Shown here: one piece after another, positions 5,315 to 37,028 of the stretch
Layout: every line of letters begins with the position of its first letter
Position numbering within the stretch: the first letter of the stretch is position 1
DNA from: Candidatus Heimdallarchaeota archaeon
GTDB lineage: Archaea > Asgardarchaeota > Heimdallarchaeia > Heimdallarchaeales > Heimdallarchaeaceae
NCBI GenBank assembly: GCA_021399395.1
Contig: JAAFKJ010000147.1
Span: 1-40,535, forward strand
Reading direction: 5' to 3'
Length of the DNA: 40,535 nucleotides
The notes under the pieces: generated by a model
What the model saw: the letters and a program-made list of their open reading frames with translations, nothing else
Told to the model about the DNA's origin: nothing
Database searches by the model: none
Program-made: the position numbers and the translations under genes

Positions 5315-6019
5315 ATGTCAGATTCAGAAAAAAAGATGAGCATCCTAATCGAAGAAGCGAATGCAAATTACAATGCGAATAGATACAAAGATGCAGCAAG
5401 AACGTTTGAACATCTAATTACTTTAGCAATTCAGAGTGGTGAGGAAGAAGAAGCAATATATTTCGCTTATAGGGCTGCAGATTGCTGGAGAAAGGATAAA
5501 AATGAGATGAATCGGGCAGTTATTTTTAGAGATATTGGTAACCTAGCTTTTAGTTTCTGTTCAAAAATATTAGATGATTATGTTTCAAAAACAAAGAAAT
5601 CAGAAGATAAAGCAAAGGCTTTACTGCTAGCTGGTGAATGTTTAATCTCTCAAGATAAGACTAAAGCAATTAAGAGATTATCAAAAGCACAGACACTATT
5701 CGAAGAACTTGCTTCTAATACAAAAGATAGCAAATTAAAGACTAACTATCTTATGGATGCCCTTGAGAGCACAGTCAAACAAGGTGACAAAAAGCAAGCA
5801 AAGGAACTGAAAATCAGAATCGCCAACCATCATGTAAGTTCAGCTGAAAAAGATTTCAAGAAAAATACACCAGAGGATTTACAATCAGCTTTAAGGTCTT
5901 TTGAGGATGCATTAGAGATGTTTCAAAATCTCAAATTGAAAGAAGATATTCAGAGCATCTCTAAAAAAATAGCGACTCTCAAGAAGAAAGTTGCAGAATA
6001 TGACCCATTTGCAACTTAG
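5315..6019 (+). CDS. TPR/SNAP-like helical repeat protein
   Basis: Repeated helical hairpins: YKDAARTFEH, EEAIYFAYRAADCW, AKALLLAGECL, ALRSFEDALEMF. Confidence 0.6.
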   Translation: MSDSEKKMSILIEEANANYNANRYKDAARTFEHLITLAIQSGEEEEAIYFAYRAADCWRKDKNEMNRAVIFRDIGNLAFSFCSKILDDYVSKTKKSEDKAKALLLAGECLISQDKTKAIKRLSKAQTLFEELASNTKDSKLKTNYLMDALESTVKQGDKKQAKELKIRIANHHVSSAEKDFKKNTPEDLQSALRSFEDALEMFQNLKLKEDIQSISKKIATLKKKVAEYDPFAT

Positions 6020-6120
6020 AAGATAGAGAAATTTTCTTTCTTAATGTTTTTCAGATAGGAAATTACTTGAAGAAACTATTGTAAGGAAATATTCAAAAGA
6101 AGGAAATTTTAAGAGAACAT

Positions 6121-6219
6121 GGTCCCGTAGCTCAGTTGGATAGAGCCCCAGCCTCCTAAACTTAGCTTAAAAGTGGAGAAAGTTGGTGGTCGCGCGTTCG
6201 AATCGCGTCGGGATCGCCA
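6121..6219 (+). tRNA. tRNA-Arg(CCT) with 22-nt intron at 37/38 (6159-6180)
   Basis: Acceptor GGTCCCG/CGGGATC, D stem GCTC/GAGC, anticodon stem CCAGC/GTTGG, CCT at 6155-6157, T loop TTCGAAT, G73, encoded CCA. BHB: CTCC/GGAG central helix, ACTT/AAGT outer helix. Confidence 0.95.
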
Positions 6220-6248
6220 AATTCATTTCTATTAATGTGGTGTGAAAA

Positions 6249-6785
6249 ATGAGCAAACAAACATCGACTTCTATCAATGTTTTCATCTGTAATTTTCATA
6301 CATGTAACCCAAAGAAATGTACTGCAACTAGAATTGTTAAATTCAGAAAAGCGAGGGAGATAAGAATTAATCAAATAAAGTCTAAACATATTGTTCTAAC
6401 TCCTTTTTCTGAGATTGCTTTATCTCCTGCTGATAAAGAAAATGCAATAAATTATGGTCTCGTTGGTGTTGATTGCTCATGGAACAATATAGAAAATGGT
6501 AGAAATGCACTTGATAAAGGAACTGGGAGATCTCTACCCTTTCTTGTTGCAGCTAATCCAAATAATTATGGCTTTCCTTCAAAACTTAGCACTCTTGAAG
6601 CAATAGGAGCTGCACTATATATCTTAGGCAATAAAGATCAAAGTAAAGACATTTTATCCTTAGTTAGCTGGGGAGTTGAATTTTTAAAAATTAATCAAGA
6701 ATACTTAGATAGTTATTCATCCGCTAAGAATAGTAAAGAGGTTGTCAAGAAACAAGCTAAGATTATGAAAGATCTTTATGGTTAA
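6249..6785 (+). CDS. tsr3: SSU rRNA aminocarboxypropyltransferase Tsr3
   Basis: CNPKKCT, LSPAD, VDCSW, RSLPFLVAANPNNYG and LSTLEA motifs. Confidence 0.93.
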   Translation: MSKQTSTSINVFICNFHTCNPKKCTATRIVKFRKAREIRINQIKSKHIVLTPFSEIALSPADKENAINYGLVGVDCSWNNIENGRNALDKGTGRSLPFLVAANPNNYGFPSKLSTLEAIGAALYILGNKDQSKDILSLVSWGVEFLKINQEYLDSYSSAKNSKEVVKKQAKIMKDLYG

Positions 6786-6845
6786 AAGAGTCATAAAAAG
6801 TTTGATACAGAATTCTTTTAAATTACTTGTTTAAACAAGATTAAG

Positions 6846-7961
6846 ATGAAAATAGGCATAAACTGTTTTCCAACAGTTGGTGGTTCTGGAATTGTAGCCA
6901 CCCAGCTAGCAATTGAAATGGCCAAGAAAGGTCATGATGTACATTTAATCAGTTATGATACTCCTTTCTTACTTCGAACCTTCAGACATCCGAATATAAC
7001 TCTCGAACTCGTTGATATTCTTTCTTATCCTCTGTTCAAAGATATAGGTGCTCCCTATACAATCCTTGCTGCATCAAAACTTGCACAAATAGCAAAGAAA
7101 ACAGAAGTGGAATTGTTACATATTCATTATGCGGTACCGGTAGGTGTTTCAGCTTACTTGGCGAAAGAAATAACAAAAATACCCTTCGCTATTACAGCTC
7201 ATGGTTCAGATATACATACGCTAGGCATAGATCCTGCTTACAACCCAGTTCTCTCTCATGTATTCAATGAAGCTGATGGATTATCTACTGTTTCAAATTA
7301 CATGAAAAAAGAAATCCAAGAGAAATTCAATTATGAAAGAGAACTCGAAGTTTTCTATAACCCAATTGATATCGAAAAATATCAAAAAATCGATGCTCAG
7401 CTTTGTGACTTCAGGATTAAACATGAGAATAATTTCATACATGTTTCGAATTTCCGTCCAGTTAAGAATGCTCCATTTATTGTTGAAGCTTTTGCTGATG
7501 TTGTTAAAGAACACCCAGATACTGGTTTAATAATGGTTGGAGAAGGACCTGAAAGAAAGAAATGTGAAGATTTAGCGTACAATTTGGGCATATCTGAAAA
7601 TGTTACCTTCCAAGGAGTTAGGGTTTCAATAGCCCCCATTTATAGTTGTGGTGCTGCTCTTTTGTCTGCTAGTACAAACGAAAGTTTTGGCTTAACATTA
7701 GCTGAATCAATGTCTTGTGAAACGCCGGTAATTGCTCCCAAAGTAGGGGGTATTCCTGAAGTAATCGATCATGAAGAAAATGGTTTTGTCTATGAATTTG
7801 GAAACAGAGAGAGTCTTACCAAGTACATGCTCCAACTAGTAACAGATAAACAGCTTGTAAAGAAAATGGGTAAGAAAGGAAGAGAAAAAGTAGTCAATAA
7901 ATTTGAAGCAGGGATGATTGCAGATCAATACATTAAATGGTATGAGAAAATTCTAGATTAA
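6846..7961 (+). CDS. bshA: GT4 glycosyltransferase, N-acetyl-alpha-D-glucosaminyl L-malate synthase BshA
   Basis: MKIGINCFPTVGGSGIVATQLA, YPLF, HIHYAVP, HGSDI, HVSNFRPVK and ESFGL closely match BshA. Confidence 0.88.
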   Translation: MKIGINCFPTVGGSGIVATQLAIEMAKKGHDVHLISYDTPFLLRTFRHPNITLELVDILSYPLFKDIGAPYTILAASKLAQIAKKTEVELLHIHYAVPVGVSAYLAKEITKIPFAITAHGSDIHTLGIDPAYNPVLSHVFNEADGLSTVSNYMKKEIQEKFNYERELEVFYNPIDIEKYQKIDAQLCDFRIKHENNFIHVSNFRPVKNAPFIVEAFADVVKEHPDTGLIMVGEGPERKKCEDLAYNLGISENVTFQGVRVSIAPIYSCGAALLSASTNESFGLTLAESMSCETPVIAPKVGGIPEVIDHEENGFVYEFGNRESLTKYMLQLVTDKQLVKKMGKKGREKVVNKFEAGMIADQYIKWYEKILD

Positions 7962-7962
7962 A

Positions 7963-9594
7963 CTACAATCTAGAATTAATATATCCTATCCCTCCAACAG
8001 GAGTCTGCTCAGAGTAATATCTTTTGTAGGAAGTAAGATAATCACTTAAACCTGTAACTGCTGCCATAATTATCCACGGCCAACTCACCTCTTGCCACTG
8101 GTGATTATCATCATACATACCAAATTGCCACGATTTGTATCTTTCAATGTTACTTAATGGTTTATTCTGAATCTTTTTCATTTCATCCACTTTGTTTTTG
8201 ATTTTCTCAGTTAACTGGTTTGTGGAGTGAGTCAATGCTTCACTTTCTTTCTTCCTTCTAGCTTTTGAAATGCTTCCCAGAATTTTAAAGAAGTCATCAG
8301 CAAAAAGAGAAAGTGTTTGAGGTTCAAGTGTTTGACTGATATTTTCTATCCATGGTGCATTGTACAAAATTCTTGTATATTTGATGTATAATGGGCATTG
8401 TATCCCTATTTCTGTAACAGCGGGAATAACTTGAGCATTATAATTGATTTCTCCTGGTCCAGAAACTCGCACATAAATTGGCATGATTGACTGTAGAAGT
8501 GCTTGGTTGGTATCTAATCTGGGTACTAAATTAGATATGTGTTCTTCTAAATCAATATTGTCTTTATCTATGCTAAATGAGTAAATTTCCTTGTTTAAAG
8601 GACATTTACCTTCAAAATGAAGCATATTCTGATCTTCAGTACAAGACAGATCTAGTCTATATCCGTCGTTTGGACATTCATAAAAGAATGGTGAATAATC
8701 CTCTTTCTTTTTTGCGGTAGTAGGTCTCAGTCCTAGACTTTGGACTTTTTCAGAAGCTCTATTGAACTCATTAAGATATTTTTGCCTATTTTTAAGAAAT
8801 GGTTTGTACCCACCTGCTGTTAACTTACGTATTTCAGGATGAGATGAAGGGAAAAATATAACTCCCCAATCATTTATGATATTAGCTTGAATACCCCAAA
8901 TAAGTGTGATCCACTCACCTATATCAGCTGAGGTTCTATATGTTTCTCTAAGAAATGTGATAATATGTTCTATTCTTTCCATGAACAGATTTTGAGAATT
9001 TTTATCAACAGAATTCTTAAATTCGCTAAAAATGTTCTTAATCACTTGAAGATTTTCTTCAAGCCATTCAAAGTTGTTTGTTTTTATTTTATTAACAATT
9101 ACTCCCTCAATTGCATCTTCTAAAACAATAGGTTTACTATGTGAAGATTGGTTGTTGGGTAGATGAATTGAAGTAATCTCAGGTTGAATACTATCATGAG
9201 TATTAACTAAGAACATTGGAACAAGGAAATTATCCTTTTCTCTACTTAGTTCAGAAAGGGTAGCAATGGTGGCTATTTTATTGCCTATTATGCCTGAACC
9301 TCCAAATATAGTTGTTTGTTGTCCTCCAAGTATCACACCATTCTGAATTAAATTTATGTTGGATTGTACCTTTGGGGTCAATAATCCGAGTTTTTTGTGA
9401 TACTCTTCTAAGATAATTTTTAGCTTGCTCAGTTGATCTGAATTAACCTCTATTCTAGGCAACTGATTAATTTGATTCAAAACTTCAGAGAATGTTCTAG
9501 GTAAATGTCCATAGAAATATTTCCCTTCTGGAAATTCTTTGCCTTCTCGCATATGAGCTTCATAGAAGTCTCCAACTGTTTCCATAGTTTTCAT
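7963..9594 (-). CDS. bshC: Bacillithiol biosynthesis cysteine-adding enzyme BshC-like
   Basis: 543 aa; GGQQ..IFGG, K..T, HD and GPGEINY.AQ motifs; directly adjacent to bshA. Confidence 0.78.
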   Translation of the reverse strand: MKTMETVGDFYEAHMREGKEFPEGKYFYGHLPRTFSEVLNQINQLPRIEVNSDQLSKLKIILEEYHKKLGLLTPKVQSNINLIQNGVILGGQQTTIFGGSGIIGNKIATIATLSELSREKDNFLVPMFLVNTHDSIQPEITSIHLPNNQSSHSKPIVLEDAIEGVIVNKIKTNNFEWLEENLQVIKNIFSEFKNSVDKNSQNLFMERIEHIITFLRETYRTSADIGEWITLIWGIQANIINDWGVIFFPSSHPEIRKLTAGGYKPFLKNRQKYLNEFNRASEKVQSLGLRPTTAKKKEDYSPFFYECPNDGYRLDLSCTEDQNMLHFEGKCPLNKEIYSFSIDKDNIDLEEHISNLVPRLDTNQALLQSIMPIYVRVSGPGEINYNAQVIPAVTEIGIQCPLYIKYTRILYNAPWIENISQTLEPQTLSLFADDFFKILGSISKARRKKESEALTHSTNQLTEKIKNKVDEMKKIQNKPLSNIERYKSWQFGMYDDNHQWQEVSWPWIIMAAVTGLSDYLTSYKRYYSEQTPVGGIGYINSRL

Positions 9595-9666
9595 ATTGAT
9601 GTCATCAGTTCTTAATAATTTTTATATAACATAAAATAAAGTCTATACATAGAAAGGTGCTAGCAG

Positions 9667-10026
9667 ATGATTGGTAATCACAATATTGTCCATATAGAAA
9701 TACCCGCCGATGATATAAACAAAGCTAAAGATTTCTATGAAACAATTTTCAAGTGGGAAGTTACAGTCAATACAGGTTATGATGAATATGCATTCTTCAA
9801 AGATGCGGAAGATGGAATTGGTGGAGCTTTTCAAAAATCTGAAGAGATGCTGACTACAGCTCTACTCTATATATCCGTTGAGGATATCGAACAAATGTTA
9901 ACTAAAATAGAGGACAAGGGTGGTCAAATTATCAGCAACAAAACTGAAATTTCTGAAGAACATGGTTATTATGCATTATTCAAAGATACTTGTGGCAATT
10001 CTATGGGCTTGTGGTCAAGAAATTAA
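9667..10026 (+). CDS. VOC (glyoxalase/bleomycin resistance) family protein
   Basis: IVHIEIPADD..AKDFYETIFKW, YISVEDI, FKDTCGNSMGLW. Confidence 0.9.
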   Translation: MIGNHNIVHIEIPADDINKAKDFYETIFKWEVTVNTGYDEYAFFKDAEDGIGGAFQKSEEMLTTALLYISVEDIEQMLTKIEDKGGQIISNKTEISEEHGYYALFKDTCGNSMGLWSRN

Positions 10027-10267
10027 TGATAAACTTCTGTTTTTCTATTTTAACTAGTTTTCTTCTTATCTAGAATGCCCTATTTATTTCCCATCAAAGA
10101 TATAAAATACTGAACTTCCGACAAAAATCGGGCCGTATTTTTCCTTCATTATTTCTTTTTTAAATTAAGCAAACTTATGTTATTTCACGTTGAATCTTAC
10201 ACAAATTTTTTAAATGAAGAACATCTAATGAGACAACAAGAAAAAATTCTCAAGGTGAAAATAAGAA

Positions 10268-10432
10268 ATGGCTAAAGAATGCCCAAAATGTCACAGTAAC
10301 AATCTAAAAGAAGTAGAGGATAAGTCCAAACCAATAGCTTATTTCGGACATCAACCTATATATAAAAAGAAAAAAGTCTGCAAAGAGTGCACATATGAAT
10401 GGTTTGATGAAGGCGGCGCAGAGGCAGTATAA
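10268..10432 (+). CDS. Small Zn-ribbon protein (54 aa), absent from ORF track
   Basis: MAKECPKCHSNNLKEVEDKSKPIAYFGHQPIYKKKKVCKECTYEWFDEGGAEAV*; two CxxC pairs; SD-like AAGGTGA upstream. Confidence 0.8.
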   Translation: MAKECPKCHSNNLKEVEDKSKPIAYFGHQPIYKKKKVCKECTYEWFDEGGAEAV

Positions 10433-10521
10433 TAATACCCCTCTGTGTATTTTCTACCTCTTCTTTCTCTATCTAGAACCGATTCACAATCTTTTCACAC
10501 ATTTTTAAATGCTATAGGGTT

Positions 10522-11628
10522 ATGGTTATGAAGATAAAAGAATTTTTGCGAAAATACTTCTTCAGAATAATAATCTTAATTGTTATGGTCGGTTTTTTGG
10601 TTTATTTCTTTTATCGGTTGGATTTCAAAGAATCTTACAAGGTTTTAAAAGATGCTTCCGTTCTATATCTACTACTAGCATTATTTTTTATGCTTGTTAG
10701 TGCAGCAGTAAAGGCATATCGATTTTATATTCTCATAAAACCCAATCATCCTGAAGTAAAATTCTCGAAATTTTTACTTCCCTATCTTGTTGGTTATGGT
10801 TTTAGTGTACTTGGACCATTTAAAACAGGAGAATTGGCAAGTGTAGAGATAAACAAACGCAATCTAGATGTTTCTCGATCTTCCTCTTTTGCTGCTTTAG
10901 CTTTTTTTAGAGTTGTAGATGTAATAGTTGTTTTAGTATTTTTCATTATAGCACTTGGTGTTACTGTACCAAATATTATCACCAATACAATTACATCTGA
11001 TCCAGATTTAGCCTCATATATTCAGTATGGTACCAAAGTAGTTTTTTATCTAGCAATTGCAGGAACTGTTATCTTAACTGCAATATTGTTTGTTCCTCGC
11101 ATAGGACGATTTTTCTTAAAAATCACAACAACAATTACAAACAAAATCTCTAAAAAAGGTGGTGATTGGTTAGACAGAGTTGTTCAACCTGCTTTAGATG
11201 ACTACTACAAATCATTAAAGTTTCTTTATAGTAAAATAGTAATTGCGACTATTGTAGTAACCACAACTGTACTAAGATGGTTACTTGAGTTTTATTCACT
11301 TAAGTTTACCTTAGCAGCATTTTATACAGAAATCAATTTGATTGATGCAGCCTCTGTGACTTCCATTGCATTGCTTATAGGTTTACTAACATTTGTACCT
11401 GCAGGTGCTGGAACAGGAACGATAACAACAGAGATTCTTCTAATTGGTCTATTAATTAATAAGAATATAGCTGATGCTGCAATTCTCTATCAAGCTCTGA
11501 TTGGAATAATACTTACTTTGTTATTGGCGGCCATTGCTTCACCGTTTTTGAAAGAGAAAAAAACCGATATACAAAAAGAAGAACAGACTATTTCATCTGA
11601 AAGTAATGAGTCTATAATTGAAACTTAG
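10522..11628 (+). CDS. Lysylphosphatidylglycerol synthase TM / UPF0104 flippase-like membrane protein
   Basis: Multiple hydrophobic helices; P.KTGE, R..D and PAGAG motifs. Confidence 0.8.
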   Translation: MVMKIKEFLRKYFFRIIILIVMVGFLVYFFYRLDFKESYKVLKDASVLYLLLALFFMLVSAAVKAYRFYILIKPNHPEVKFSKFLLPYLVGYGFSVLGPFKTGELASVEINKRNLDVSRSSSFAALAFFRVVDVIVVLVFFIIALGVTVPNIITNTITSDPDLASYIQYGTKVVFYLAIAGTVILTAILFVPRIGRFFLKITTTITNKISKKGGDWLDRVVQPALDDYYKSLKFLYSKIVIATIVVTTTVLRWLLEFYSLKFTLAAFYTEINLIDAASVTSIALLIGLLTFVPAGAGTGTITTEILLIGLLINKNIADAAILYQALIGIILTLLLAAIASPFLKEKKTDIQKEEQTISSESNESIIET

Positions 11629-26907: not shown

Positions 26908-28119
26908 TCAAATTACTTTCATACTTTTTCCTATTTTTTCCATAGTTTCAAGAATATAATCAACTTCTTCTTCTGAGTGGGTTGCCATAACACAACAACG
27001 TAATCGTCCTGCTTCCATTGGAACAGCTGGATAAACTATTGGAGGGACAAGAATACCTTCTTTCTTCATTTTCTTTGCAAAACGGAAGGTTTTGGTATCA
27101 TCTCCAATTATGACGGGAACTATTGGAGTATCTTTGCTCTTCAAAGTATCGTACCCTAATTCTTGCACTCCTTTGATAAAGTGTGTATAGTTCTTTTGAA
27201 GAGTTCTAATGAGATCCTTATCATTTTCAATAATCTCAAAAGCTTTTAGTGCTACAGCAGCACAAACGGGGGGAAGAGCTGCACTAAAAACAAATGCATT
27301 CGAAGTGAATTTAAGATAACTAATTACTTCCTTTTTAGCAGCTAGATAACCACCAATAGAGGGAATTGCTTTACTCAATGTTCCCATATAGATGTCCACA
27401 GAACCAGGTTTAAGGTCAAAATAATCGTCAACACCTCTGCCATTTGGACCTATTGTACCAAGAGCATGAGCTTCATCGACCATAGTAAAGGAGTCATATT
27501 GTTTAGCAACTTCAATAATCTCTGGCATGGATGCTATGTCGCCATCCATACTATATACGCCATCAACAACCACTAGTACCCGCTTGTAATTGGATCGATG
27601 TTCATCTAATACTTTCTCTAAATCACCGATATCATTATGATTAAATCTCTTCCAATCTGCTTTTGATAAAATACAACCATCGTATATACTTTGATGATCA
27701 TATTTGTCAATGACGATCAGGTCGTCCTTACCAAAAAGTGTAGAAATTAATGTCATATTAGTTACATATCCACTACTATAGACTATGGCACTTTCAGTTT
27801 TCTTAAAATCAGAGATTTTCTTCTCTAATTCTTCATGGATATCTGCTGTTCCTGTGAGTAATCTTACTCCACCAGCACCACTACCATATTTGTCGATAGC
27901 TTCGTGTGCTGCTGCAATTATCTCGGGGTGATTGACTAATCCAAGATAACTATATGAACCAAGCATTAAGAGTTCTTGATTATCTATCATTACTTTATTT
28001 GATGCTGCGCCTTGAATTGGTAACATATAAGTCATAAGTCCAAATCTGATGAGATTTTTCTCTCTATTCAATAAATCCTTGATTTTTTTATTATCTGTAA
28101 TATCTGTAAACTTACTCAC
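26908..28119 (-). CDS. PLP-dependent alpha-oxoamine synthase (BioF/Kbl/serine palmitoyltransferase family)
   Basis: SYLGL, SGYVTN, HQSI, FNHND, DGVYSMDGD, DEAHALG, GTLSKA, YPAVP..RLR. Confidence 0.9.
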   Translation of the reverse strand: MSKFTDITDNKKIKDLLNREKNLIRFGLMTYMLPIQGAASNKVMIDNQELLMLGSYSYLGLVNHPEIIAAAHEAIDKYGSGAGGVRLLTGTADIHEELEKKISDFKKTESAIVYSSGYVTNMTLISTLFGKDDLIVIDKYDHQSIYDGCILSKADWKRFNHNDIGDLEKVLDEHRSNYKRVLVVVDGVYSMDGDIASMPEIIEVAKQYDSFTMVDEAHALGTIGPNGRGVDDYFDLKPGSVDIYMGTLSKAIPSIGGYLAAKKEVISYLKFTSNAFVFSAALPPVCAAVALKAFEIIENDKDLIRTLQKNYTHFIKGVQELGYDTLKSKDTPIVPVIIGDDTKTFRFAKKMKKEGILVPPIVYPAVPMEAGRLRCCVMATHSEEEVDYILETMEKIGKSMKVI

Positions 28120-28809: not shown

Positions 28810-30759
28810 TTATTTTTCCCCTATATATCCTTCCCCAAACCATCTGAATATGATTTCATCTATTTCTTGTTCCATTTTATCATTCATTTCTCCATGGAAT
28901 TTAGCAGGATATTCGATTTTATTTAATTCTTTAACAGTCTCATGTAAAGCTCTACGTTGATGGAAAGTATCCTTTCTTGTTATCATTACAGTTCCTGTTT
29001 CTTTATGACCAAATTCGGCCAATATTACTATATCCTCACCATAATCAATTTTCATTACTCTTCCGATTTCTCCAGAAAAAATTTCTGAAATTATATCTTT
29101 TGCAGCTCTGACCATTCCACCAAAAAGAAGTATGTCATCAACGATTTTTTCGTCTCTTAGAAACCTCTTTAATGGAATCCCAGACCTATGTAAAATAATG
29201 AGCTGGTTTGGAGTAATTGTTGTAGTATCGGCAACTAGAGGGACATTATATCTAATTAAGTCGACCAATTCTTTAATGATTTTTTGAGTTTCCAAAATCA
29301 ATCTTCGTTTTTGTTGAATGTTGCTAGTTTTAAAAATAGTTTTACAATTTTTGTCAACATCTAGTAAAATTGGCTTAAGCGTCGTATCCGGTTGTTTCTC
29401 AATTGTAAAGACCTTCAAATCATCTAGTAACTTTGCACATAAGTTAAGGTCTTCTTCTTTTGGATTGGATAAATAGTTGAACAGAATGACTTGGATGAGA
29501 TCGATAAGTATCTTTGCTGATAAATGATCCATTCTTCTCTTTACTGACACATTTAATGCTTGGTTCAGATAATTTTTCCCCTTGGACATATTCAAATTCA
29601 ATATTTCCTTTTTGCCAAAGAAATATAAAATATGGGGGTTTTGCTCAATTTCTTCAGTTGTTTTACCTTCTAGAATGCCCCCCAAGATCTGATTAAATTC
29701 TATCATCTCTTTCTGTTCTAAATATAATTCTGCTAAAGAATAATCAACTAATTCATCTTTTGCACCTATTTCATCTAATATTTCCTTAGCTAAGATAAAT
29801 TCCTTAATAGAGGTAGTTATTAGTCTTTTTTGAGCATATATCTCTCCTAAATTTGAATGAACCAATGCTATAGATCTGTTATCATTCCATTTTTCATACA
29901 AAGGAATGACACTTAGAAGTCGTTTTTCAGCACTTTCGAAATTTCCTTGCATTCTTTCAACATCTGCAAGATTTGAAATTGCTGACACTTCTCCTCCCCT
30001 ATCTCCAAGTTCTTTAAAATGTGTCCCTGCAAGTTCAAAGTAATTTTTAGACTGGTTCCAATTGCCAGAGTATTTTTCCAAGATTCCTAAGAGTGCATTA
30101 AATTTTGCAATATGTACTCTGTCCCCATAATCCTTCGCAGTGGAAAGTATTTCCATACAATTATTCTTTGAATCTTCAACATTTCTTTCGGTTCTTGCAG
30201 ACCAAAGTTCCCCATAAACACAGTTGAGATATAAATCCAAGAAAACTGATTTTCTCTCGCTCTCTAAGAATGTCTCGATTTCTTCACGTATTTGGATAAA
30301 CTCTGAGATAGCATCTTTCTTCTCCCCTCTTCTATCTTTAATTCTAGCTATTCCTATTTTGCTAGCTAGACTTATCAAATGATCTTGATTATCAAGGAGA
30401 GTTTTGAAAATAGTTTCAGCTGTCTCATATTCTCCTTTACGTGATATAGAAAATCCTTGCCAAAGATTAAGATAATTATTATTATCATATTCTACCAATT
30501 TTTCTTCTAATATATCTGTTAATGAAAGATTATAGAGAATTTTTCCTAAGATAAACAATAAAATATTAGATGCTTCTGAGGTTTTTGATAATATGGTGGA
30601 TATAAGATTGAGTTGTTCTACTAAAGAATTACTTCTGCATTCAACCTTTAACTGCTGAAATAATTCTCTTTCTTCTAAAAACCAGAATTCAATATAATTT
30701 CTAATTTCAGGAAAGAACAAATCTTTATCCATTTTAAAGCTCCGAATGTTTTGACTCAT
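28810..30759 (-). CDS. TPR-repeat protein with C-terminal longin-like domain
   Basis: TPR units (LGIL...GNWNQSKNYFELA; SNLA; SNLGEIY); C-terminal LIILHRSGIPL...LFGGMVRA...SEIF. Confidence 0.8.
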   Translation of the reverse strand: MSQNIRSFKMDKDLFFPEIRNYIEFWFLEERELFQQLKVECRSNSLVEQLNLISTILSKTSEASNILLFILGKILYNLSLTDILEEKLVEYDNNNYLNLWQGFSISRKGEYETAETIFKTLLDNQDHLISLASKIGIARIKDRRGEKKDAISEFIQIREEIETFLESERKSVFLDLYLNCVYGELWSARTERNVEDSKNNCMEILSTAKDYGDRVHIAKFNALLGILEKYSGNWNQSKNYFELAGTHFKELGDRGGEVSAISNLADVERMQGNFESAEKRLLSVIPLYEKWNDNRSIALVHSNLGEIYAQKRLITTSIKEFILAKEILDEIGAKDELVDYSLAELYLEQKEMIEFNQILGGILEGKTTEEIEQNPHILYFFGKKEILNLNMSKGKNYLNQALNVSVKRRMDHLSAKILIDLIQVILFNYLSNPKEEDLNLCAKLLDDLKVFTIEKQPDTTLKPILLDVDKNCKTIFKTSNIQQKRRLILETQKIIKELVDLIRYNVPLVADTTTITPNQLIILHRSGIPLKRFLRDEKIVDDILLFGGMVRAAKDIISEIFSGEIGRVMKIDYGEDIVILAEFGHKETGTVMITRKDTFHQRRALHETVKELNKIEYPAKFHGEMNDKMEQEIDEIIFRWFGEGYIGEK

Positions 30760-31384
30760 AGAACGGACTATTTTTCTTCAAAGGAATCTGCGAAAAAGCT
30801 TCAGCATGAATAGTGGAAGCTTGAGCTCCCCTCATCAAAGTTCTATGCTTGTGAAATTTAATGTAGAAATTTTCTCCGCCCTTATAAAGTTGAGACTTGT
30901 AGCATTTGATAGCAGATTCTTTTATTTCATAATATTCTGTTATATCTACTAGTATGTGGGGATTTGGGATTAGGATTGTTGTTTCTGCAACATAGAGTTT
31001 GGAAACAAGATGAGGATTTTCATATTGTGTTTCATGAGCTGCCCATTCAATCCCCTCTCTAACTATGCTATAACTAGTTCTATGATCGCTATGATAATCC
31101 TTTTCTAAATGCGTTATGATTATTTCTGGTTGGAACTCTAAAATAAATGAGATGAAATCTTTGGTTATCTCCTTTTCATGATTAGCAACATCATCATAAT
31201 CAAAGATGATGGGACTTTGGACACCTAGAATTTTAGTAGCATCAAGATATTCTTTCTTCCTAATTGGAGATGAAGAAAGACACACTGTACTTACATTGTG
31301 GTTAGTACTTGAATACTTAGCTATAGTGCCACCTGAACTCAATGATTCATCATCAGGATGTGCAAAAACAAACGCAATTTTCAC
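30734..31384 (-). CDS. PIG-L family N-acetylglucosamine deacetylase (BshB-like)
   Basis: AHPDDE, GGTIAK, R..E, HSDH, VDIT..K..AI..Y.SQ, AEAF. Confidence 0.88.
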   Translation of the reverse strand: MKIAFVFAHPDDESLSSGGTIAKYSSTNHNVSTVCLSSSPIRKKEYLDATKILGVQSPIIFDYDDVANHEKEITKDFISFILEFQPEIIITHLEKDYHSDHRTSYSIVREGIEWAAHETQYENPHLVSKLYVAETTILIPNPHILVDITEYYEIKESAIKCYKSQLYKGGENFYIKFHKHRTLMRGAQASTIHAEAFSQIPLKKNSPFYESKHSEL

Positions 31385-31438: not shown

Positions 31439-32461
31439 TTACTTTTCAAGGTATTCAACAGCATAAATACCAGTTTTGTACCCATCACCTATTAAGACTG
31501 GTGCATAATCTATCTCTCCTCTGATTGTGCCAGCTGCAAACATTCCACTGATATTTGTTGTATTGTTCTCTGAGGTATGAATATGTCCTTTATCATCAAC
31601 TTTCAGATCAAAATTCTGCAGATATTTTAGATCTGGTTTATCTTTTAGTTCGATAAATACAACATCGGTAGAAATCTCCTTTTCTTCACCTTCTTTTGTA
31701 AACTTAACACCTTGAGCAACATTTGTTCCAATAATCTCTACATTCTCTAACTTGATATTGTAGTTAGTCTTAATATTAGAAGTTGCTTCTATTTTTTTCA
31801 AGAATCTTTTGTCACATCCTAGTTCTGCATCTGGACAAAGAACAGTTATTTTACGACAATATTTTCTTAAAAACAAAGCTCCTCTTGCAATGAAATTACC
31901 AGTTCCGATAATCACTGCTTTTCTACCTCTGAAAAGAGCTCCATCACAAACAGCACAATGAGAGACCCCTTTATGAACAAAGTTTTCTTCTCCCTTAATA
32001 GTATTTTTTAATTCAGGAAGGCCAGTTGATAAAATTATTATCTTAGCTGTATATGTGTCTTCATCTGTAAGTACTTCAAAACCTGTTTCGAGTTGGTTAA
32101 CGGTTTTAACGTTATCACTTATGCTGAGAATTGAAGATGATTCATCTAAAAGAGCTAAAGAGTCTGATAAATCAACTTTGTGACTATCCTGTTGATCATT
32201 CATTTCCTGAACAACCTTTTGAGCTGATTCTGAATTCAGTTTACCAAGTTGTTCGGTTACCTTCTGGATTAAATCTACGCCAACAACTTTGTCAAAGCCA
32301 GGTATATTTTCGATTTCTCCTTTCTTTGCTGTATTAGAATCGAATGGAATTCCAAAAAGTTTGATCTTTAAATCAGGATTCTTTGAATAAACTGCAATTG
32401 CTGCTGACATTCCAGTTAACCCTGATCCTATAATGGCTATGTCACAAGTGTTATCCTTCAT
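31439..32461 (-). CDS. Thioredoxin reductase-like flavoprotein
   Basis: IIGSGLTGMSAA, IENIPGF, KGVSHCAVCDG, GMFAAG. ATG 32461 preferred over track TTG 32488. Confidence 0.85.
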   Translation of the reverse strand: MKDNTCDIAIIGSGLTGMSAAIAVYSKNPDLKIKLFGIPFDSNTAKKGEIENIPGFDKVVGVDLIQKVTEQLGKLNSESAQKVVQEMNDQQDSHKVDLSDSLALLDESSSILSISDNVKTVNQLETGFEVLTDEDTYTAKIIILSTGLPELKNTIKGEENFVHKGVSHCAVCDGALFRGRKAVIIGTGNFIARGALFLRKYCRKITVLCPDAELGCDKRFLKKIEATSNIKTNYNIKLENVEIIGTNVAQGVKFTKEGEEKEISTDVVFIELKDKPDLKYLQNFDLKVDDKGHIHTSENNTTNISGMFAAGTIRGEIDYAPVLIGDGYKTGIYAVEYLEK

Positions 32462-32585
32462 AGTTGTAAAAACATTCTCAAAATACAAAAACTTTGTTGA
32501 AAAGGAAAGACATAATCAAGAATAGATTCATTAGCAAAGGTATTTCTTTCTTTGGTATTTAAATATCCGAATCAGTAAAGAATAG

Positions 32586-35474: not shown

Positions 35475-37028
35475 ATGGCAGATCCTGTTAGAATCATTCA
35501 TTTCAGTGATACTCACATTACGCCTAGACAACAGTTCATTAGACCAAATTTTGATGCAGCTGTAAATGTGATAAATAGCACTCCTCATGATTTCTCTATC
35601 TTTGCTGGAGATTTAACTCAAGATGGTTTAATTGAAGAGTTCACCTTGGCTGATGAACTAAGACGAAAAATTGATTCTCCAAAAACATACTGGATTATAG
35701 GAAATCACGACAGTAGAAGTGGTGGATTTGAAGTTTGGGAGAATAAAATTGGCCCAAGAGAATTTCATGAGTTTTCAGATGATGTTCTTTTTATTGGTTT
35801 AGATTCATGTATCCCAGATCAAGATGGTGGAAGGTTTGGACGAGAAGCATTAGATTATACTAAGAAGATTTTGATGAAATACGGTGATGCTAGAATTAAG
35901 ATTGTTGGTTTTCATCATCATATTTTGCCTATCCCAAAAACTGGTAGAGAAAGATCTAATGCTATTGATGCTGGAGATATGCTTTCTGTACTTTTGGATC
36001 ATAATGTTGATGCTGTTTTCACAGGACACAAACATCATCCCAATGTTTACAAGGTTGAGGATACAATTATAGTTTCAGCAGGAAGTGTTTCAAGTTATAA
36101 GACAAGAAGCGGTGGCCCTCGCTCTTTGAATTATGTAGAGATAACACCTGAAAAAGAAGTGAAAACCAAAATAATGGAAACAAATGGAACACTAATTAGG
36201 AATGAAGTTAAAACAATCACCAGAAGATTCCGGATGGTTGATTCTGCAGGAGGGAAGTGGTTAAGATTAGCTCAAATCTCAGGTACAGATTTTGGTACTT
36301 CATTTGATGGTCATTCAGAGTTATTTACTAAAGGTATGGACTTAATCGATTCAACTAATCCTGATTTAATACTCCATTGTGGAAATTTGACCTCCAAAGG
36401 GAGAACTTCAGATTATGAGCTCGCTGTTGAAAATTTTGTAAATTATTCTGATAAATTGGTATTCTGTCCAGGTCCTAATGACCTTAAAGGTTTTGGAGAA
36501 ACTCTTTCTCACAAACATTTTGATACAGAAAGTATTTTTGAGAAGAATAAATCATGCTTCTATATCTTGAATACATCTGTTCCTGAAACAGAAATAGGGG
36601 TTGTTGGTAGAACTGTTCAAAACAGATTGGAAAGATATGTCTATCATACTCGACAAGAAACCTTAGATAAATTTCACACTGTTGTTATGCATCATCATCT
36701 TATACCCATCCCAGGTACTAGAGAAACTTCAGCTCTAGAAGATGCTGGGGATGTTCTAAGATTACTTACAAACACAGGCGTAAATTTAGTTCTCTCTGGA
36801 CACTTAGGAAAAGCTTTCTGTACAAGAGTTGAAAGAACTGCATTTGTAAACTGCAACACATTAGCATCTCAAAATACTTCTTCATTTGAAAATAGTTTCA
36901 ATCTAATCGATATCTCAGCAGATGGTGCAATAGTTGTTTCAGAGATAAACGTTCCATCGGGCTTCAGAAGAATATTGGGGATATTTCCAGGAATTCTACC
37001 CGACAAAAATAAAATGGGTTCTGTTTAG
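35475..37028 (+). CDS. Tandem CpdA/Icc-like metallophosphoesterase (second domain degenerate)
   Basis: Domain 1: SDTH, GDLT, GNHD, HHH, GHKH. Domain 2: SGTD, GNLT, GPND, HHH, GHLG. Confidence 0.88.
   Translation: MADPVRIIHFSDTHITPRQQFIRPNFDAAVNVINSTPHDFSIFAGDLTQDGLIEEFTLADELRRKIDSPKTYWIIGNHDSRSGGFEVWENKIGPREFHEFSDDVLFIGLDSCIPDQDGGRFGREALDYTKKILMKYGDARIKIVGFHHHILPIPKTGRERSNAIDAGDMLSVLLDHNVDAVFTGHKHHPNVYKVEDTIIVSAGSVSSYKTRSGGPRSLNYVEITPEKEVKTKIMETNGTLIRNEVKTITRRFRMVDSAGGKWLRLAQISGTDFGTSFDGHSELFTKGMDLIDSTNPDLILHCGNLTSKGRTSDYELAVENFVNYSDKLVFCPGPNDLKGFGETLSHKHFDTESIFEKNKSCFYILNTSVPETEIGVVGRTVQNRLERYVYHTRQETLDKFHTVVMHHHLIPIPGTRETSALEDAGDVLRLLTNTGVNLVLSGHLGKAFCTRVERTAFVNCNTLASQNTSSFENSFNLIDISADGAIVVSEINVPSGFRRILGIFPGILPDKNKMGSV

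What the first reader, a model, noticed from the sequence alone, without database searches (positions are those of the whole stretch)
6846..9594. Bacillithiol biosynthesis pair bshA-bshC in an archaeon
Seen: a GT4 with the full set of BshA motifs converging tail-to-tail (stops 1 nt apart, 7961/7963) on a 543-aa BshC-like gene. Known: BshA, BshB and BshC make bacillithiol (Cys-GlcN-malate) in Firmicutes and other bacteria; characterised archaeal low-molecular-weight thiols are mainly gamma-Glu-Cys, CoA, CoM and CoB. Inference: this lineage makes bacillithiol or a variant, probably via lateral transfer, which bears on redox and oxygen handling in eukaryote-related archaea.
Basis: partly seen in the sequence, partly recalled or inferred. 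Interest (0 to 1): 0.72.

Follow-up and report, generated by a model that had tools for sequence, protein, structure and literature searches.

The report
Bacillithiol-type thiol genes in Heimdallarchaeia
An Asgard (Heimdall-group) archaeon carries genes for making bacillithiol or a close relative, a small protective thiol known from bacteria, but its last enzyme belongs to a divergent lineage whose named members are all archaeal, and the presence of such genes in Asgard archaea was already noted in print.

Summary
A 371-aa GT4 gene (6846-7961, +) and a 543-aa gene (7963-9594, -) converge with one base between their stop codons.

The GT4 passes NCBI's BshA equivalog model (360.7 vs 273.7 bits). 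The 543-aa protein fails the BshC equivalog cut-off (91.3 vs 265.8) but passes Pfam PF10079. Its confident model matches B. subtilis BshC along its whole length (Z 33.3, 450 residues). It belongs to a separate "Asgard-type" BshC clade that keeps 26 of 38 canonical conserved positions and replaces 12.

A candidate for the missing middle enzyme (BshB) is the PIG-L deacetylase at 30734-31384. Its counterparts lie beside bshA-bshC in two other Asgard families.

The pair is adjacent in 28 of 28 family genomes with both genes listed. BshA occurs in 146 of 400 Asgard genomes and the Asgard-type BshC in 193.

Most likely these genes make bacillithiol or a near variant (0.7). This is not a recent transfer from Firmicutes.

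The presence of the genes is not new: a 2020 review and NCBI names already report it. New here are the divergent ligase clade, the BshB candidate, a linked thioredoxin-reductase-like gene, and a GT2-deacetylase-BshC-like operon in other Asgard lineages. No product has been detected.

The parts
6846..7961 (+). [quoted passage not shown]
   Evidence: TIGR03999 scores 360.7 bits against a cut-off of 273.7, full length; the next family scores 121 bits and MshA 72.8 against 462.5. Solved BshA structures 2jjm/3mbo match at E 2e-76 and 5d00 at 2e-71. VSN 200-202, K207 and ESFG 279-282 are present.
7963..9594 (-). Asgard-type bshC: divergent BshC-family putative cysteine-adding ligase (543 aa)
   Evidence: TIGR03998 scores 91.3 bits against 265.8 (fails). 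PF10079 scores 81.4 against 27 (passes). The AF2 model has pLDDT 92.8. Against 4wbd: Foldseek E 1.5e-20, TM 0.68; VIA Z 33.3, rmsd 2.7 A, 450 residues, model 3-541. hhalign against canonical BshC gives prob 100, E 5e-46. 26 of 38 canonical conserved positions are kept.
30734..31384 (-). PIG-L/LmbE-family deacetylase (216 aa), candidate BshB
   Evidence: PF02585 scores 80.1 against 28.2. It is the best BshB1 match in the genome, but at 85.3 bits against 182.5. It is 39.6% and 37.7% identical (E 2e-43, 2e-47) to the PIG-L genes next to bshA-bshC in families f31 and f12, whereas the genome's other PIG-L (C13) is 24-25% identical to those two. Its best PDB relatives are 2ixd and the BshB1 structure 6p2t, with the AHPDD and H.DH motifs aligned.
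31439..32488 (-). Thioredoxin-reductase-like flavoprotein with CAVC motif (349 aa), just upstream of the deacetylase; tentative partner (inferred only)
   Evidence: Pyr_redox_2 scores 72.1 bits. TIGR01292 scores 195 against 343, and YpdA 70.8 against 339.9. It is the third TrxR-type gene in the genome; better ones lie on C80 and C99. The TrxR-like -> PIG-L pair is kept in 3 of 3 family genera tested. A 29.6%-identical homologue (E 4e-34) sits beside bshC in family f4.

Best explanation
The window belongs to a Heimdallarchaeaceae-like Asgard archaeon and encodes a three-step pathway for a cysteinyl-glucosamine thiol, most likely bacillithiol (Cys-GlcN-malate) or a very close derivative. Step 1: BshA (6846-7961) transfers GlcNAc from UDP-GlcNAc to L-malate. 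This rests on strong homology: the protein passes the equivalog model. Step 2: the PIG-L deacetylase at 30734-31384 removes the acetyl group to give GlcN-malate. This is inferred from orthology with deacetylases that lie next to bshA-bshC in other Asgard families. Step 3: the divergent BshC (7963-9594) adds cysteine to the free amine. This is inferred from fold, conserved motifs and gene linkage. The thiol would serve as a redox buffer and as a cofactor for thiol transferases; the genome has six DinB_2-family proteins. How the disulfide is re-reduced is unknown. The TrxR-like paralogue next to the deacetylase is a candidate. The ligase belongs to an old clade whose named members are all archaeal, so this is not a recent import from Firmicutes.
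For: BshA: 360.7 bits against a cut-off of 273.7 and E 2e-76 to solved BshA. BshC: fold Z 33.3 over 450 residues against 4wbd, with the next hit (LysRS-I) at Z 20.6; hhalign prob 100; the GQQ...K, VP.F...D...E, GPGEI.Y.Q and C-terminal QE motifs are kept. Linkage: bshA and bshC are adjacent in 28 of 28 f1 genomes with both genes listed. They are also adjacent in f31 (same strand), f12 (convergent) and f4. A PIG-L gene abuts the pair in f31 and f12. The window's PIG-L is the orthologue of those genes, and its best solved relatives are BshB structures. Co-distribution, by my hand tally: all 146 BshA-positive genomes fall in 8 families. Seven of these carry the Asgard-type BshC. The eighth (f7) carries canonical BshC in 5 of 5 genomes tested. 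No gamma-Glu-Cys ligase (PF04107, PF04262) and no EgtD (PF10017) was found in the genome (82% complete). The pathway steps are as summarised in PMC7278568.
Against: The BshC fails its curated cut-off by a wide margin. It is 18% identical to canonical BshC at profile level. It replaces 12 of 38 canonical conserved positions, including W127, H133, D134, R333 and R376, so its substrates may differ. The PIG-L fails both BshB cut-offs (85.3 against 182.5; 64.1 against 195.25). Archaeal diacetylchitobiose deacetylases score close behind the BshB structures. It lies 23 kb from the pair. No bacilliredoxin (PF06491, PF11009) and no YpdA/Bdr orthologue was found. Asgard-type BshC occurs without any BshA in 52 genomes of six families, so the ligase is not tied to BshA alone. 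Malate-contact residues of BshA could not be checked because the papers are not held. No archaeal bacillithiol has been detected (PMC7278568). From recall, with no call behind it: cysteine ligation by BshC has not been reconstituted in vitro even for the bacterial enzyme.
Confidence: 0.7

Rival explanations
1. The pathway logic is the same but the product differs. The remodelled BshC pocket, a shifted BshA acceptor preference, or both yield a bacillithiol analogue: another hydroxy-acid aglycone, or another amino acid in place of cysteine.
For: 12 of 38 canonical BshC positions are systematically replaced. The Asgard-type clade is separated from canonical BshC by a fully supported long branch. 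Sister lineages pair the same ligase family with a GT2 in place of BshA, so the family tolerates different sugar donors and acceptors. BshA of f31 and f12 carries EGMP/EGAP in place of ESFG.
Against: The window's own BshA passes the equivalog model and keeps ESFG and VSN...K. Most BshC signature motifs are kept. The f1 ligase always pairs with a BshA-type GT4.
Confidence: 0.22
2. This is not a soluble-thiol pathway. The GT4, the deacetylase and the flippase-like membrane protein at 10522-11628 make a glucosamine-bearing lipid or surface glycoconjugate, and the BshC-like protein has an unrelated ligase role.
For: BshA matches the GlcNAc-phosphatidylglycerol synthase model weakly (49.1 bits). 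The LPG_synthase_TM protein matches the GlcN-PG flippase model weakly (31.1 bits). An LPG_synthase_TM gene also lies near the BshC-like gene in f5. BshC-like genes exist without BshA in 52 genomes.
Against: Both lipid-system matches are far below their cut-offs (49.1 against 480; 31.1 against 320). BshA passes its own equivalog model. The tight bshA-bshC(-PIG-L) linkage across four distant families points to one shared pathway.
Confidence: 0.05
3. Bacterial contamination of the bin, or a very recent transfer from a bacterium.
For: Bacillithiol genes are typical of bacteria. A 2025 RefSeq survey found none in archaea (PMC12719100, passages read).
Against: GC content is even and the neighbours are archaeal (Tsr3). 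The pair is conserved in 28 of 28 family genomes with both genes listed, including single-contig genomes G015 and G016. The closest bacterial BshA is only 34-41% identical. All named Asgard-type BshC relatives are archaeal.
Confidence: 0.02

Closest known systems
Bacterial bacillithiol pathway BshA/BshB/BshC (Bacillus, Staphylococcus, Deinococcus-Thermus, Bacteroidota, Acidobacteriota)
   Same: It has the same three enzyme families and the same inferred chemistry: a GT4 GlcNAc-malate synthase, a PIG-L deacetylase and a BshC-fold ligase. BshA passes the equivalog model. The BshC fold is shared along the whole chain.
   Different: The BshC belongs to a separate clade with 12 of 38 canonical conserved positions replaced, and it fails the equivalog cut-off. 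The deacetylase also falls below both BshB cut-offs. No Brx or Bdr/YpdA orthologues were found. The genes lie as a convergent pair plus a distant deacetylase, not as a bacterial-type operon.
Canonical bshC-bshB-bshA operon of Heimdallarchaeial family f7 (e.g. locus L031)
   Same: It occurs in the same archaeal class and has the same three functions, with BshA over the cut-off.
   Different: The f7 BshC passes TIGR03998 (376-386 bits; 5 of 5 genomes tested) and groups with canonical BshC. Its three genes overlap in one operon. None of the 12 f7 genomes has the Asgard-type BshC.
Mycothiol pathway MshA/MshB/MshC of Actinobacteria
   Same: The logic is the same: a GT4 glycosyltransferase, a PIG-L-family deacetylase and an ATP-dependent cysteine ligase related to class I aminoacyl-tRNA synthetases.
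   Different: The window's GT4 scores 72.8 bits against a cut-off of 462.5 for MshA, and the deacetylase scores 43.8 against 224 for MshB. The ligase has the BshC fold and is not a CysRS paralogue (CysRS Z 8.6-9.2 against 33.3 for BshC).
GT2 - PIG-L - BshC-like operon of Asgard families f19 and f20 (loci L032-L035)
   Same: The ligase belongs to the same Asgard-type clade, and a PIG-L deacetylase lies next to it.
   Different: A family 2 glycosyltransferase (PF00535) replaces BshA, and no BshA is present in these families. The ligases form their own fully supported subclade. The product is probably a different glycoside (inference).

Membership tests
[quoted passage not shown] | Score over the curated equivalog cut-off, full-length match | tested here: met
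   360.7 bits against 273.7; residues 1-370 align to profile 1-374 of 375. In the control genomes the model passes its cut-off in only 2 of 14.
[quoted passage not shown] | Close full-length similarity to structurally solved BshA | tested here: met
   2jjm/3mbo E 2e-76, 5d00 E 2e-71, 6n1x/6d9t E 3e-68. The next GT4 structure scores E 5e-17.
[quoted passage not shown] | GlcNAc-binding ESFG motif and VSN...K segment (as named in PMC10361700) | tested here: met
   VSN 200-202, K207 and ESFG 279-282 are present.
[quoted passage not shown] | Malate-contact residues; activity with UDP-GlcNAc and L-malate | not testable with these tools
BshC (TIGR03998 equivalog) | Score over the curated equivalog cut-off | tested here: not met
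   91.3 bits against 265.8; only residues 52-478 align, to profile 41-438 of 529.
BshC family in the wide sense (Pfam PF10079, BshC fold) | Pfam gathering score for the N-terminal Rossmann-like domain | tested here: met
   81.4 bits against 27. hhalign against 26 canonical sequences gives prob 100, E 5e-46 over 365 columns.
BshC family in the wide sense (Pfam PF10079, BshC fold) | Whole-chain fold of B. subtilis BshC (4WBD), C-terminal part included | tested here: met
   The model has pLDDT 92.8. Foldseek: E 1.5e-20, TM 0.68/0.69. VIA: Z 33.3, rmsd 2.7 A, 450 aligned, model 3-541 to chain 11-539.
BshC family in the wide sense (Pfam PF10079, BshC fold) | Conserved positions of canonical BshC | tested here: inconclusive
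   26 of 38 positions conserved at 85% or more in canonical BshC keep the same majority residue. The other 12 are replaced, including H133 and D134 of the DHD motif, R333 and R376. Their roles could not be looked up.
BshB (TIGR04001 / TIGR04000) | Score over the curated equivalog cut-off | tested here: not met
   BshB1 85.3 bits against 182.5; BshB2 64.1 against 195.25.
BshB (TIGR04001 / TIGR04000) | PIG-L fold family with its metal and catalytic motifs; nearest solved relatives are BshB | tested here: met
   PF02585 scores 80.1 against 28.2. 2ixd matches at E 2.5e-14 and 6p2t (BshB1) at E 1e-11, with AHPDD and H.DH aligned. Diacetylchitobiose deacetylases follow at E 2.5e-10.
BshB (TIGR04001 / TIGR04000) | Gene linkage with bshA/bshC | tested here: inconclusive
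   It lies 23 kb from the pair in this window. Its orthologues (38-40% identical) abut bshA-bshC in f31 and f12, and one lies 3.5 kb from bshC in f4.
Bacillithiol disulfide reductase YpdA/Bdr (TIGR04018) | Score over the curated cut-off | tested here: not met
   The best match in the genome scores 65 bits against 339.9. The TrxR-like neighbour is a CxxC thioredoxin-reductase homologue (3cty, E 9e-37).
Bacilliredoxins BrxA/B (PF06491) and BrxC (PF11009) | Presence in the genome | tested here: not met
   No match at E <= 0.001. The genome is 81.8% complete, so absence is not proven.
MshA / mycothiol pathway | Score over the curated cut-off | tested here: not met
   MshA scores 72.8 bits against 462.5. 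MshB scores 43.8 against 224.35.

The most novel reading that the evidence does not exclude
Asgard archaea hold an old BshC-type ligase lineage of their own, separate from the bacterial one. It has been combined with at least two different glycosyltransferases: the GT4 BshA in Heimdall- and Thor-like lineages, and a GT2 in Loki-like lineages. Together they would make at least two different cysteinyl-aminosugar thiols, one of them chemically new. In the window's order a dedicated thioredoxin-reductase-like paralogue, not YpdA, would recycle the disulfide. On this reading, a glutathione-like redox buffer arose or diversified within the archaeal relatives of eukaryotes independently of the glutathione system that eukaryotes use.
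Probability: 0.25. Interest if true: 0.75.

Novelty: new variant of a known kind. Interest (0 to 1): 0.5.

Why it matters
No low-molecular-weight thiol has been determined for any Asgard archaeon, the closest known archaeal relatives of eukaryotes. Which redox buffer they use bears on how they handle oxygen and on what the host of the first eukaryote could tolerate.

This window, with its relatives, turns a one-line database remark (2020) into a concrete, testable gene set: a standard BshA, a candidate deacetylase and a divergent ligase. It also suggests why a 2025 BLAST-based survey saw nothing in archaea. At 18% profile-level identity the ligase would miss that survey's stated 25% identity threshold (my inference); from my own knowledge, RefSeq also holds few metagenome-derived genomes.

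BshC's chemistry is still poorly understood. A second, deeply diverged clade with a defined set of kept and replaced positions is useful for working out which residues matter.

Tried and rejected
1. RNA evidence: no RNA holder was listed for 6846-9594.
2. Malate-site residues of BshA: the three structural papers are not held, so only motifs quoted in PMC10361700 could be checked.
3. Rooting the BshA tree with the genome's own GT4 paralogues failed. Their branches were saturated (8.9-10) and one fell inside Bacteroidota, so no root or direction of transfer is claimed.
4. The VOC/glyoxalase gene next to bshC (9667-10026) was considered as a FosB-like bacillithiol transferase and rejected. It has no FosB match. 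In G015 the gene after bshC is a metallophosphoesterase, and the nearby 119-aa ORF has no Pfam hit.
5. The flavoprotein upstream of the f7 operon was considered part of a recurring reductase pattern and rejected. It is a GltD/SudA-like protein with a Fer4_20 domain and a DHODB-type partner, and is unrelated to the window's TrxR-like gene.
6. YpdA/Bdr, BrxA/B and BrxC were not found.
7. Gamma-Glu-Cys ligases and EgtD were not found. The genome is 81.8% complete.
8. Promoter and terminator scans were at chance level (21 against 18.9 expected; 3 against 2.5) and use bacterial consensus sequences.
9. Rfam found nothing in 5900-10600.
10. Earlier notes of this scan: nothing relevant.
11. Contamination was rejected.
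Full report
OBSERVATION. One search lists an ATG-started ORF at 6846-7961 (+, 371 aa) and one at 7963-9594 (-, 543 aa). One search shows TAA at 7959-7961, one base, then CTA (TAG on the minus strand) at 7963-7965. The tail-to-tail arrangement with stops one nucleotide apart is exactly as reported. GC content is even along the window (0.316-0.361). The upstream neighbour is Tsr3/DUF367 (190.7 bits). The closest relatives of the 543-aa protein are named Heimdallarchaeaceae, Heimdallarchaeota or Kariarchaeaceae by NCBI (46 hits, best 86% identity). The window is contig C55 of a 2.8-Mb, 201-contig genome that is 81.8% complete and 2.56% contaminated.

THE GLYCOSYLTRANSFERASE. The 371-aa protein scores 360.7 bits on NCBIfam TIGR03999 (BshA; cut-off 273.7), aligned over residues 1-370. 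The next family reaches 121 bits, and MshA scores 72.8 against 462.5. In 14 control genomes the model passes its cut-off in only 2. Against solved structures, the B. anthracis, B. subtilis and S. aureus BshA entries match at E 2e-76 to 3e-68 over the full length; the next GT4 scores E 5e-17. PMC10361700 (passages read) names two substrate-proximal features of BshA: the ESFG motif that binds GlcNAc, and the VSN segment followed by a catalytic lysine. The window protein has VSN 200-202, K207 and ESFG 279-282. The malate-contact residues could not be checked because the three structural papers are not held.

THE 543-aa PROTEIN.
- Family models: it fails the BshC equivalog model (TIGR03998, 91.3 bits against 265.8; residues 52-478 only) but passes Pfam PF10079 (81.4 against 27).
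- Fold: an AlphaFold2 model built on 26 sequences is confident (pLDDT 92.8, pTM 0.93). Foldseek puts B. subtilis BshC (4WBD) first at E 1.5e-20, TM 0.68/0.69, ahead of class I LysRS at E 1e-6. VIA-align gives Z 33.3, rmsd 2.7 A, 450 residues aligned, model 3-541 against chain 11-539; the next entry scores Z 20.6.
- Divergence: an exhaustive phmmer search of 1.84 billion representatives finds 155 proteins at E <= 1e-3. Forty of them are at E <= 1e-30. The full-length ones among these are 25-59% identical. Canonical-length proteins follow at E 1e-8 to 1e-4 and 22-31% identity, and match mostly within residues 20-480. A profile-profile comparison used 26 such proteins (25 match TIGR03998 at E <= 1e-5). 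It gives probability 100, E 5e-46 and 18% identity over 365 columns (query 11-411).
- Conserved positions: in a joint alignment, 38 positions are conserved at 85% or more in the canonical set. Of these, 26 have the same majority residue in the Asgard set: G91, Q92, Q93, G99, K106, P126, F128, D134, E139, G244, F303, R313, P372, G379, P380, E382, Y385, Q388, P401, Q501, E502, G515 and others. The other 12 are replaced: P98, W127, H133, D134, P323, R333, P334, Q337, P375, R376, P490 and R497 in the numbering of the f7 protein.
- Tree: 50 sequences (quick IQ-TREE) separate 11 canonical proteins from 39 Asgard-type proteins by a fully supported branch of total length 3.0.
- Taxonomy: the members of the Asgard-type clade that carry names are all archaeal: Heimdall, Kariarchaeum, Hodarchaeales, Thor, Promethearchaeota and one 'Bathyarchaeota' label.

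THE MISSING MIDDLE STEP. The best BshB1 match in the genome lies in this same window at 30734-31384 (-). It scores 85.3 bits against 182.5 for BshB1 and 64.1 against 195.25 for BshB2, and it is a clear PIG-L domain (80.1 against 28.2).
- In family f31 a PIG-L gene is divergently adjacent to bshA-bshC. In family f12 one lies next to bshA.
- The window's PIG-L is 39.6% and 37.7% identical to those two (E 2e-43, 2e-47) and 28.8% identical to the f7 BshB. The genome's second PIG-L (C13) is only 24-25% identical to each of the three and 21.6% identical to the window's own PIG-L.
- Its best solved relatives are 2ixd (E 2.5e-14) and 6p2t, deposited as GlcNAc-malate deacetylase 1 (E 1e-11), with AHPDD and H.DH aligned. 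Archaeal diacetylchitobiose deacetylases follow at E 2.5e-10.
I take it as the BshB candidate. This is inferred, not shown.

CONSERVATION AND DISTRIBUTION. I searched 400 genomes of the phylum.
- BshA passes its cut-off in 146. By my hand tally of that table: f1 30 of 31 (G000 included), f2 1/1, f3 3/3, f4 11/12, f7 10/12, f12 16/19, f31 74/86, f32 1/1, and none elsewhere (for example f5 0/22, f19 0/14, f20 0/135).
- The Asgard-type BshC profile (E <= 1e-10) matches in 193: f1 30/31, f2 1/1, f3 3/3, f4 12/12, f5 20/22, f6 2/2, f7 0/12, f12 17/19, f19 8/14, f20 19/135, f21 2/4, f28 1/5 (weak), f31 77/86, f32 1/1.
- In all 28 f1 genomes for which both tables list coordinates, the two genes are on one contig, convergent; in the 27 genomes other than G000 the matched regions are 10-54 bp apart. 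In f31 they are on the same strand (for example G317 147914-149065 and 149101-150795). In f12 they are convergent. In f4 they are adjacent or 3-6 kb apart.
- Family f7, in the same class as the window, has no Asgard-type BshC. It has a canonical one (376-386 bits, 5 of 5 genomes tested) in an overlapping bshC-PIG-L-bshA operon.
- 52 genomes in six families (f5, f6, f19, f20, f21, f28) have the Asgard-type ligase but no BshA. In 4 of 4 such loci examined from f19 and f20 the gene order is GT2 (PF00535), PIG-L, BshC-like, with an Amidohydro_2 gene next door. These ligases form their own 100%-supported subclade. In the one f5 locus examined, no glycosyltransferase or deacetylase lies nearby.

ORIGIN. 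Identities were 34-41%. Most loci were Acidobacteriota, Bacteroidota, Rhodothermota, Balneolota and Ignavibacteriota, with two Bacillaceae and seven archaeal records.

The BshA tree had 67 rows: 58 of the 80 loci, six Asgard sequences and three GT4 paralogues of the genome. I dropped 22 near-redundant Acidobacteriota rows. All 13 archaeal BshA sequences fall in one group at SH-aLRT 83 (85 without f7). Two subclades are well supported: f1+f4+one unnamed archaeon at 97, and f12+Bathyarchaeia+f31/Thor/Hermod/Promethearchaeota-labelled records at 99. The outgroups were saturated, so the root is unreliable.

Together with the BshC tree, this argues against a recent transfer from Firmicutes into this lineage. 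It leaves open an old transfer in either direction. The f7 operon is the better candidate for a later bacterial import, although its BshA sits on a long branch inside the archaeal group.

USERS AND RECYCLING. The genome has no YpdA/Bdr orthologue (best 65 bits against 339.9) and no BrxA/B or BrxC. It has six DinB_2-family proteins over the Pfam cut-off; from my own knowledge, that superfamily contains the bacillithiol and mycothiol S-transferases. No gamma-Glu-Cys ligase (PF04107, PF04262) or EgtD-type methyltransferase (PF10017) was found.

Directly upstream of the PIG-L gene lies a thioredoxin-reductase-like flavoprotein (31439-32488). It has a CAVC motif and an insertion of about 50 residues. 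It scores 195 bits against 343 on TIGR01292, and its best solved relative is 3cty at E 9e-37. Two better TrxR candidates exist elsewhere in the genome (329 and 297 bits). The TrxR-like -> PIG-L pair is kept in 3 of 3 family genera tested (G032, G015, G011). A homologue 29.6% identical (E 4e-34) lies divergently beside bshC in f4. A role in reducing the thiol's disulfide is a hypothesis only.

WHAT IS ALREADY KNOWN. Rawat & Maupin-Furlow 2020 (PMC7278568; passages of section 13 read) report 39 archaeal InterPro hits each for BshA and BshC, most in Asgard. [quoted passage not shown] NCBI names several relatives 'bacillithiol biosynthesis protein BshC'. A 2025 paper (PMC12719100; passages read) states the opposite: a RefSeq BLAST with Chlorobaculum queries (E 1e-20, identity over 25%, coverage over 80%) found no archaeon with BshA, BshB and BshC. 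The 18% profile-level identity of the Asgard-type ligase would explain that miss; this is my inference, as is the point (from my own knowledge) that RefSeq holds few metagenome-derived genomes.

Full-text searches for bacillithiol with 'Heimdallarchaeota' (1 paper) and with 'Asgard' (3 papers) found no analysis of these genes beyond the 2020 review. This rests on the listings and on passages of PMC8261052 read; the mBio paper listed was seen only as a listing. I found no paper describing a separate archaeal BshC clade, the BshB candidate or the GT2 operon, but the library does not hold most subscription journals.

VERDICT. The presence of the genes is not new. The divergent ligase clade, the deacetylase candidate, the linked TrxR-like gene and the GT2 variant operon are additions that make the question directly testable. 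Interest is moderate (0.5).

Noticed in passing
L032:5918-10370, L033:5559-9941, L034:6628-10943, L035:5233-9544 (Asgard families f19 and f20): A conserved operon of GT2 glycosyltransferase (PF00535), PIG-L deacetylase and Asgard-type BshC-like ligase, with an Amidohydro_2 gene next door. It was found in 4 of 4 loci examined, in families that lack BshA. It may make a different cysteinyl-aminosugar thiol.
   Followed up: partly
L031:6162-9564 (Heimdallarchaeial family f7, G082): A bacterial-type overlapping operon of bshC (canonical, 386 bits), PIG-L and bshA, in the same class as the window. It shows that two different BshC forms exist within one archaeal class.
   Followed up: partly
L019:8155-9846 (family f5, G066): An Asgard-type BshC-like gene with no BshA in the family (0 of 22) and no glycosyltransferase or deacetylase nearby. 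A class I/II aminotransferase converges on it, as one also does in f31 (L017:9850-11136). Its partner enzymes are unknown.
   Followed up: no
L017:6837-8072 and L018:8976-10082: The BshA proteins of f31 and f12 pass the BshA cut-off but carry EGMP and EGAP where the window's protein and solved BshA have the GlcNAc-binding ESFG motif.
   Followed up: no
window 6121-6219 (+): ARAGORN calls a 99-nt 'tRNA-???' with a four-base anticodon (ccta) between the SNAP-like gene and tsr3. Rfam finds no tRNA there at gathering score. It may be an intron-bearing archaeal tRNA or a false call.
   Followed up: partly
window 6249-6785 (+); L021:6232-6759; L016:4040-4594: The tsr3 gene (16S rRNA aminocarboxypropyltransferase family) lies next to bshA in the window, in G015 (f1) and in G055 (f4). 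This is conserved neighbourhood with no obvious functional link.
   Followed up: no
window 5315-6019 (+): A 234-aa TPR-like protein that passes the Pfam gathering score for SNAP, the soluble NSF attachment protein (27.6 against 25 bits). SNAP is a eukaryote-type family.
   Followed up: no
window 26908-28119 (-): A BioF/Kbl-family PLP acyltransferase with high but sub-threshold scores on glycine C-acetyltransferase (402.6 against 460) and serine palmitoyltransferase (398.6 against 640) models.
   Followed up: no
window 10522-11628 (+); L019:13353-14447: An LPG_synthase_TM / flippase-like membrane protein lies about 0.9 kb from bshC in the window and about 3.5 kb from the BshC-like gene in f5. 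It matches the GlcN-phosphatidylglycerol flippase model weakly (31.1 against 320 bits).
   Followed up: no
G000 contigs C174, C179, C20, C84, C175, C82: Six DinB_2-family proteins score over the Pfam cut-off in the window's genome. They are possible thiol S-transferases.
   Followed up: no
window 35475-37028 (+): A 517-aa metallophosphoesterase with a sub-threshold match to an anti-phage phosphoesterase model (DS9_1, 87.3 against 420 bits).
   Followed up: no
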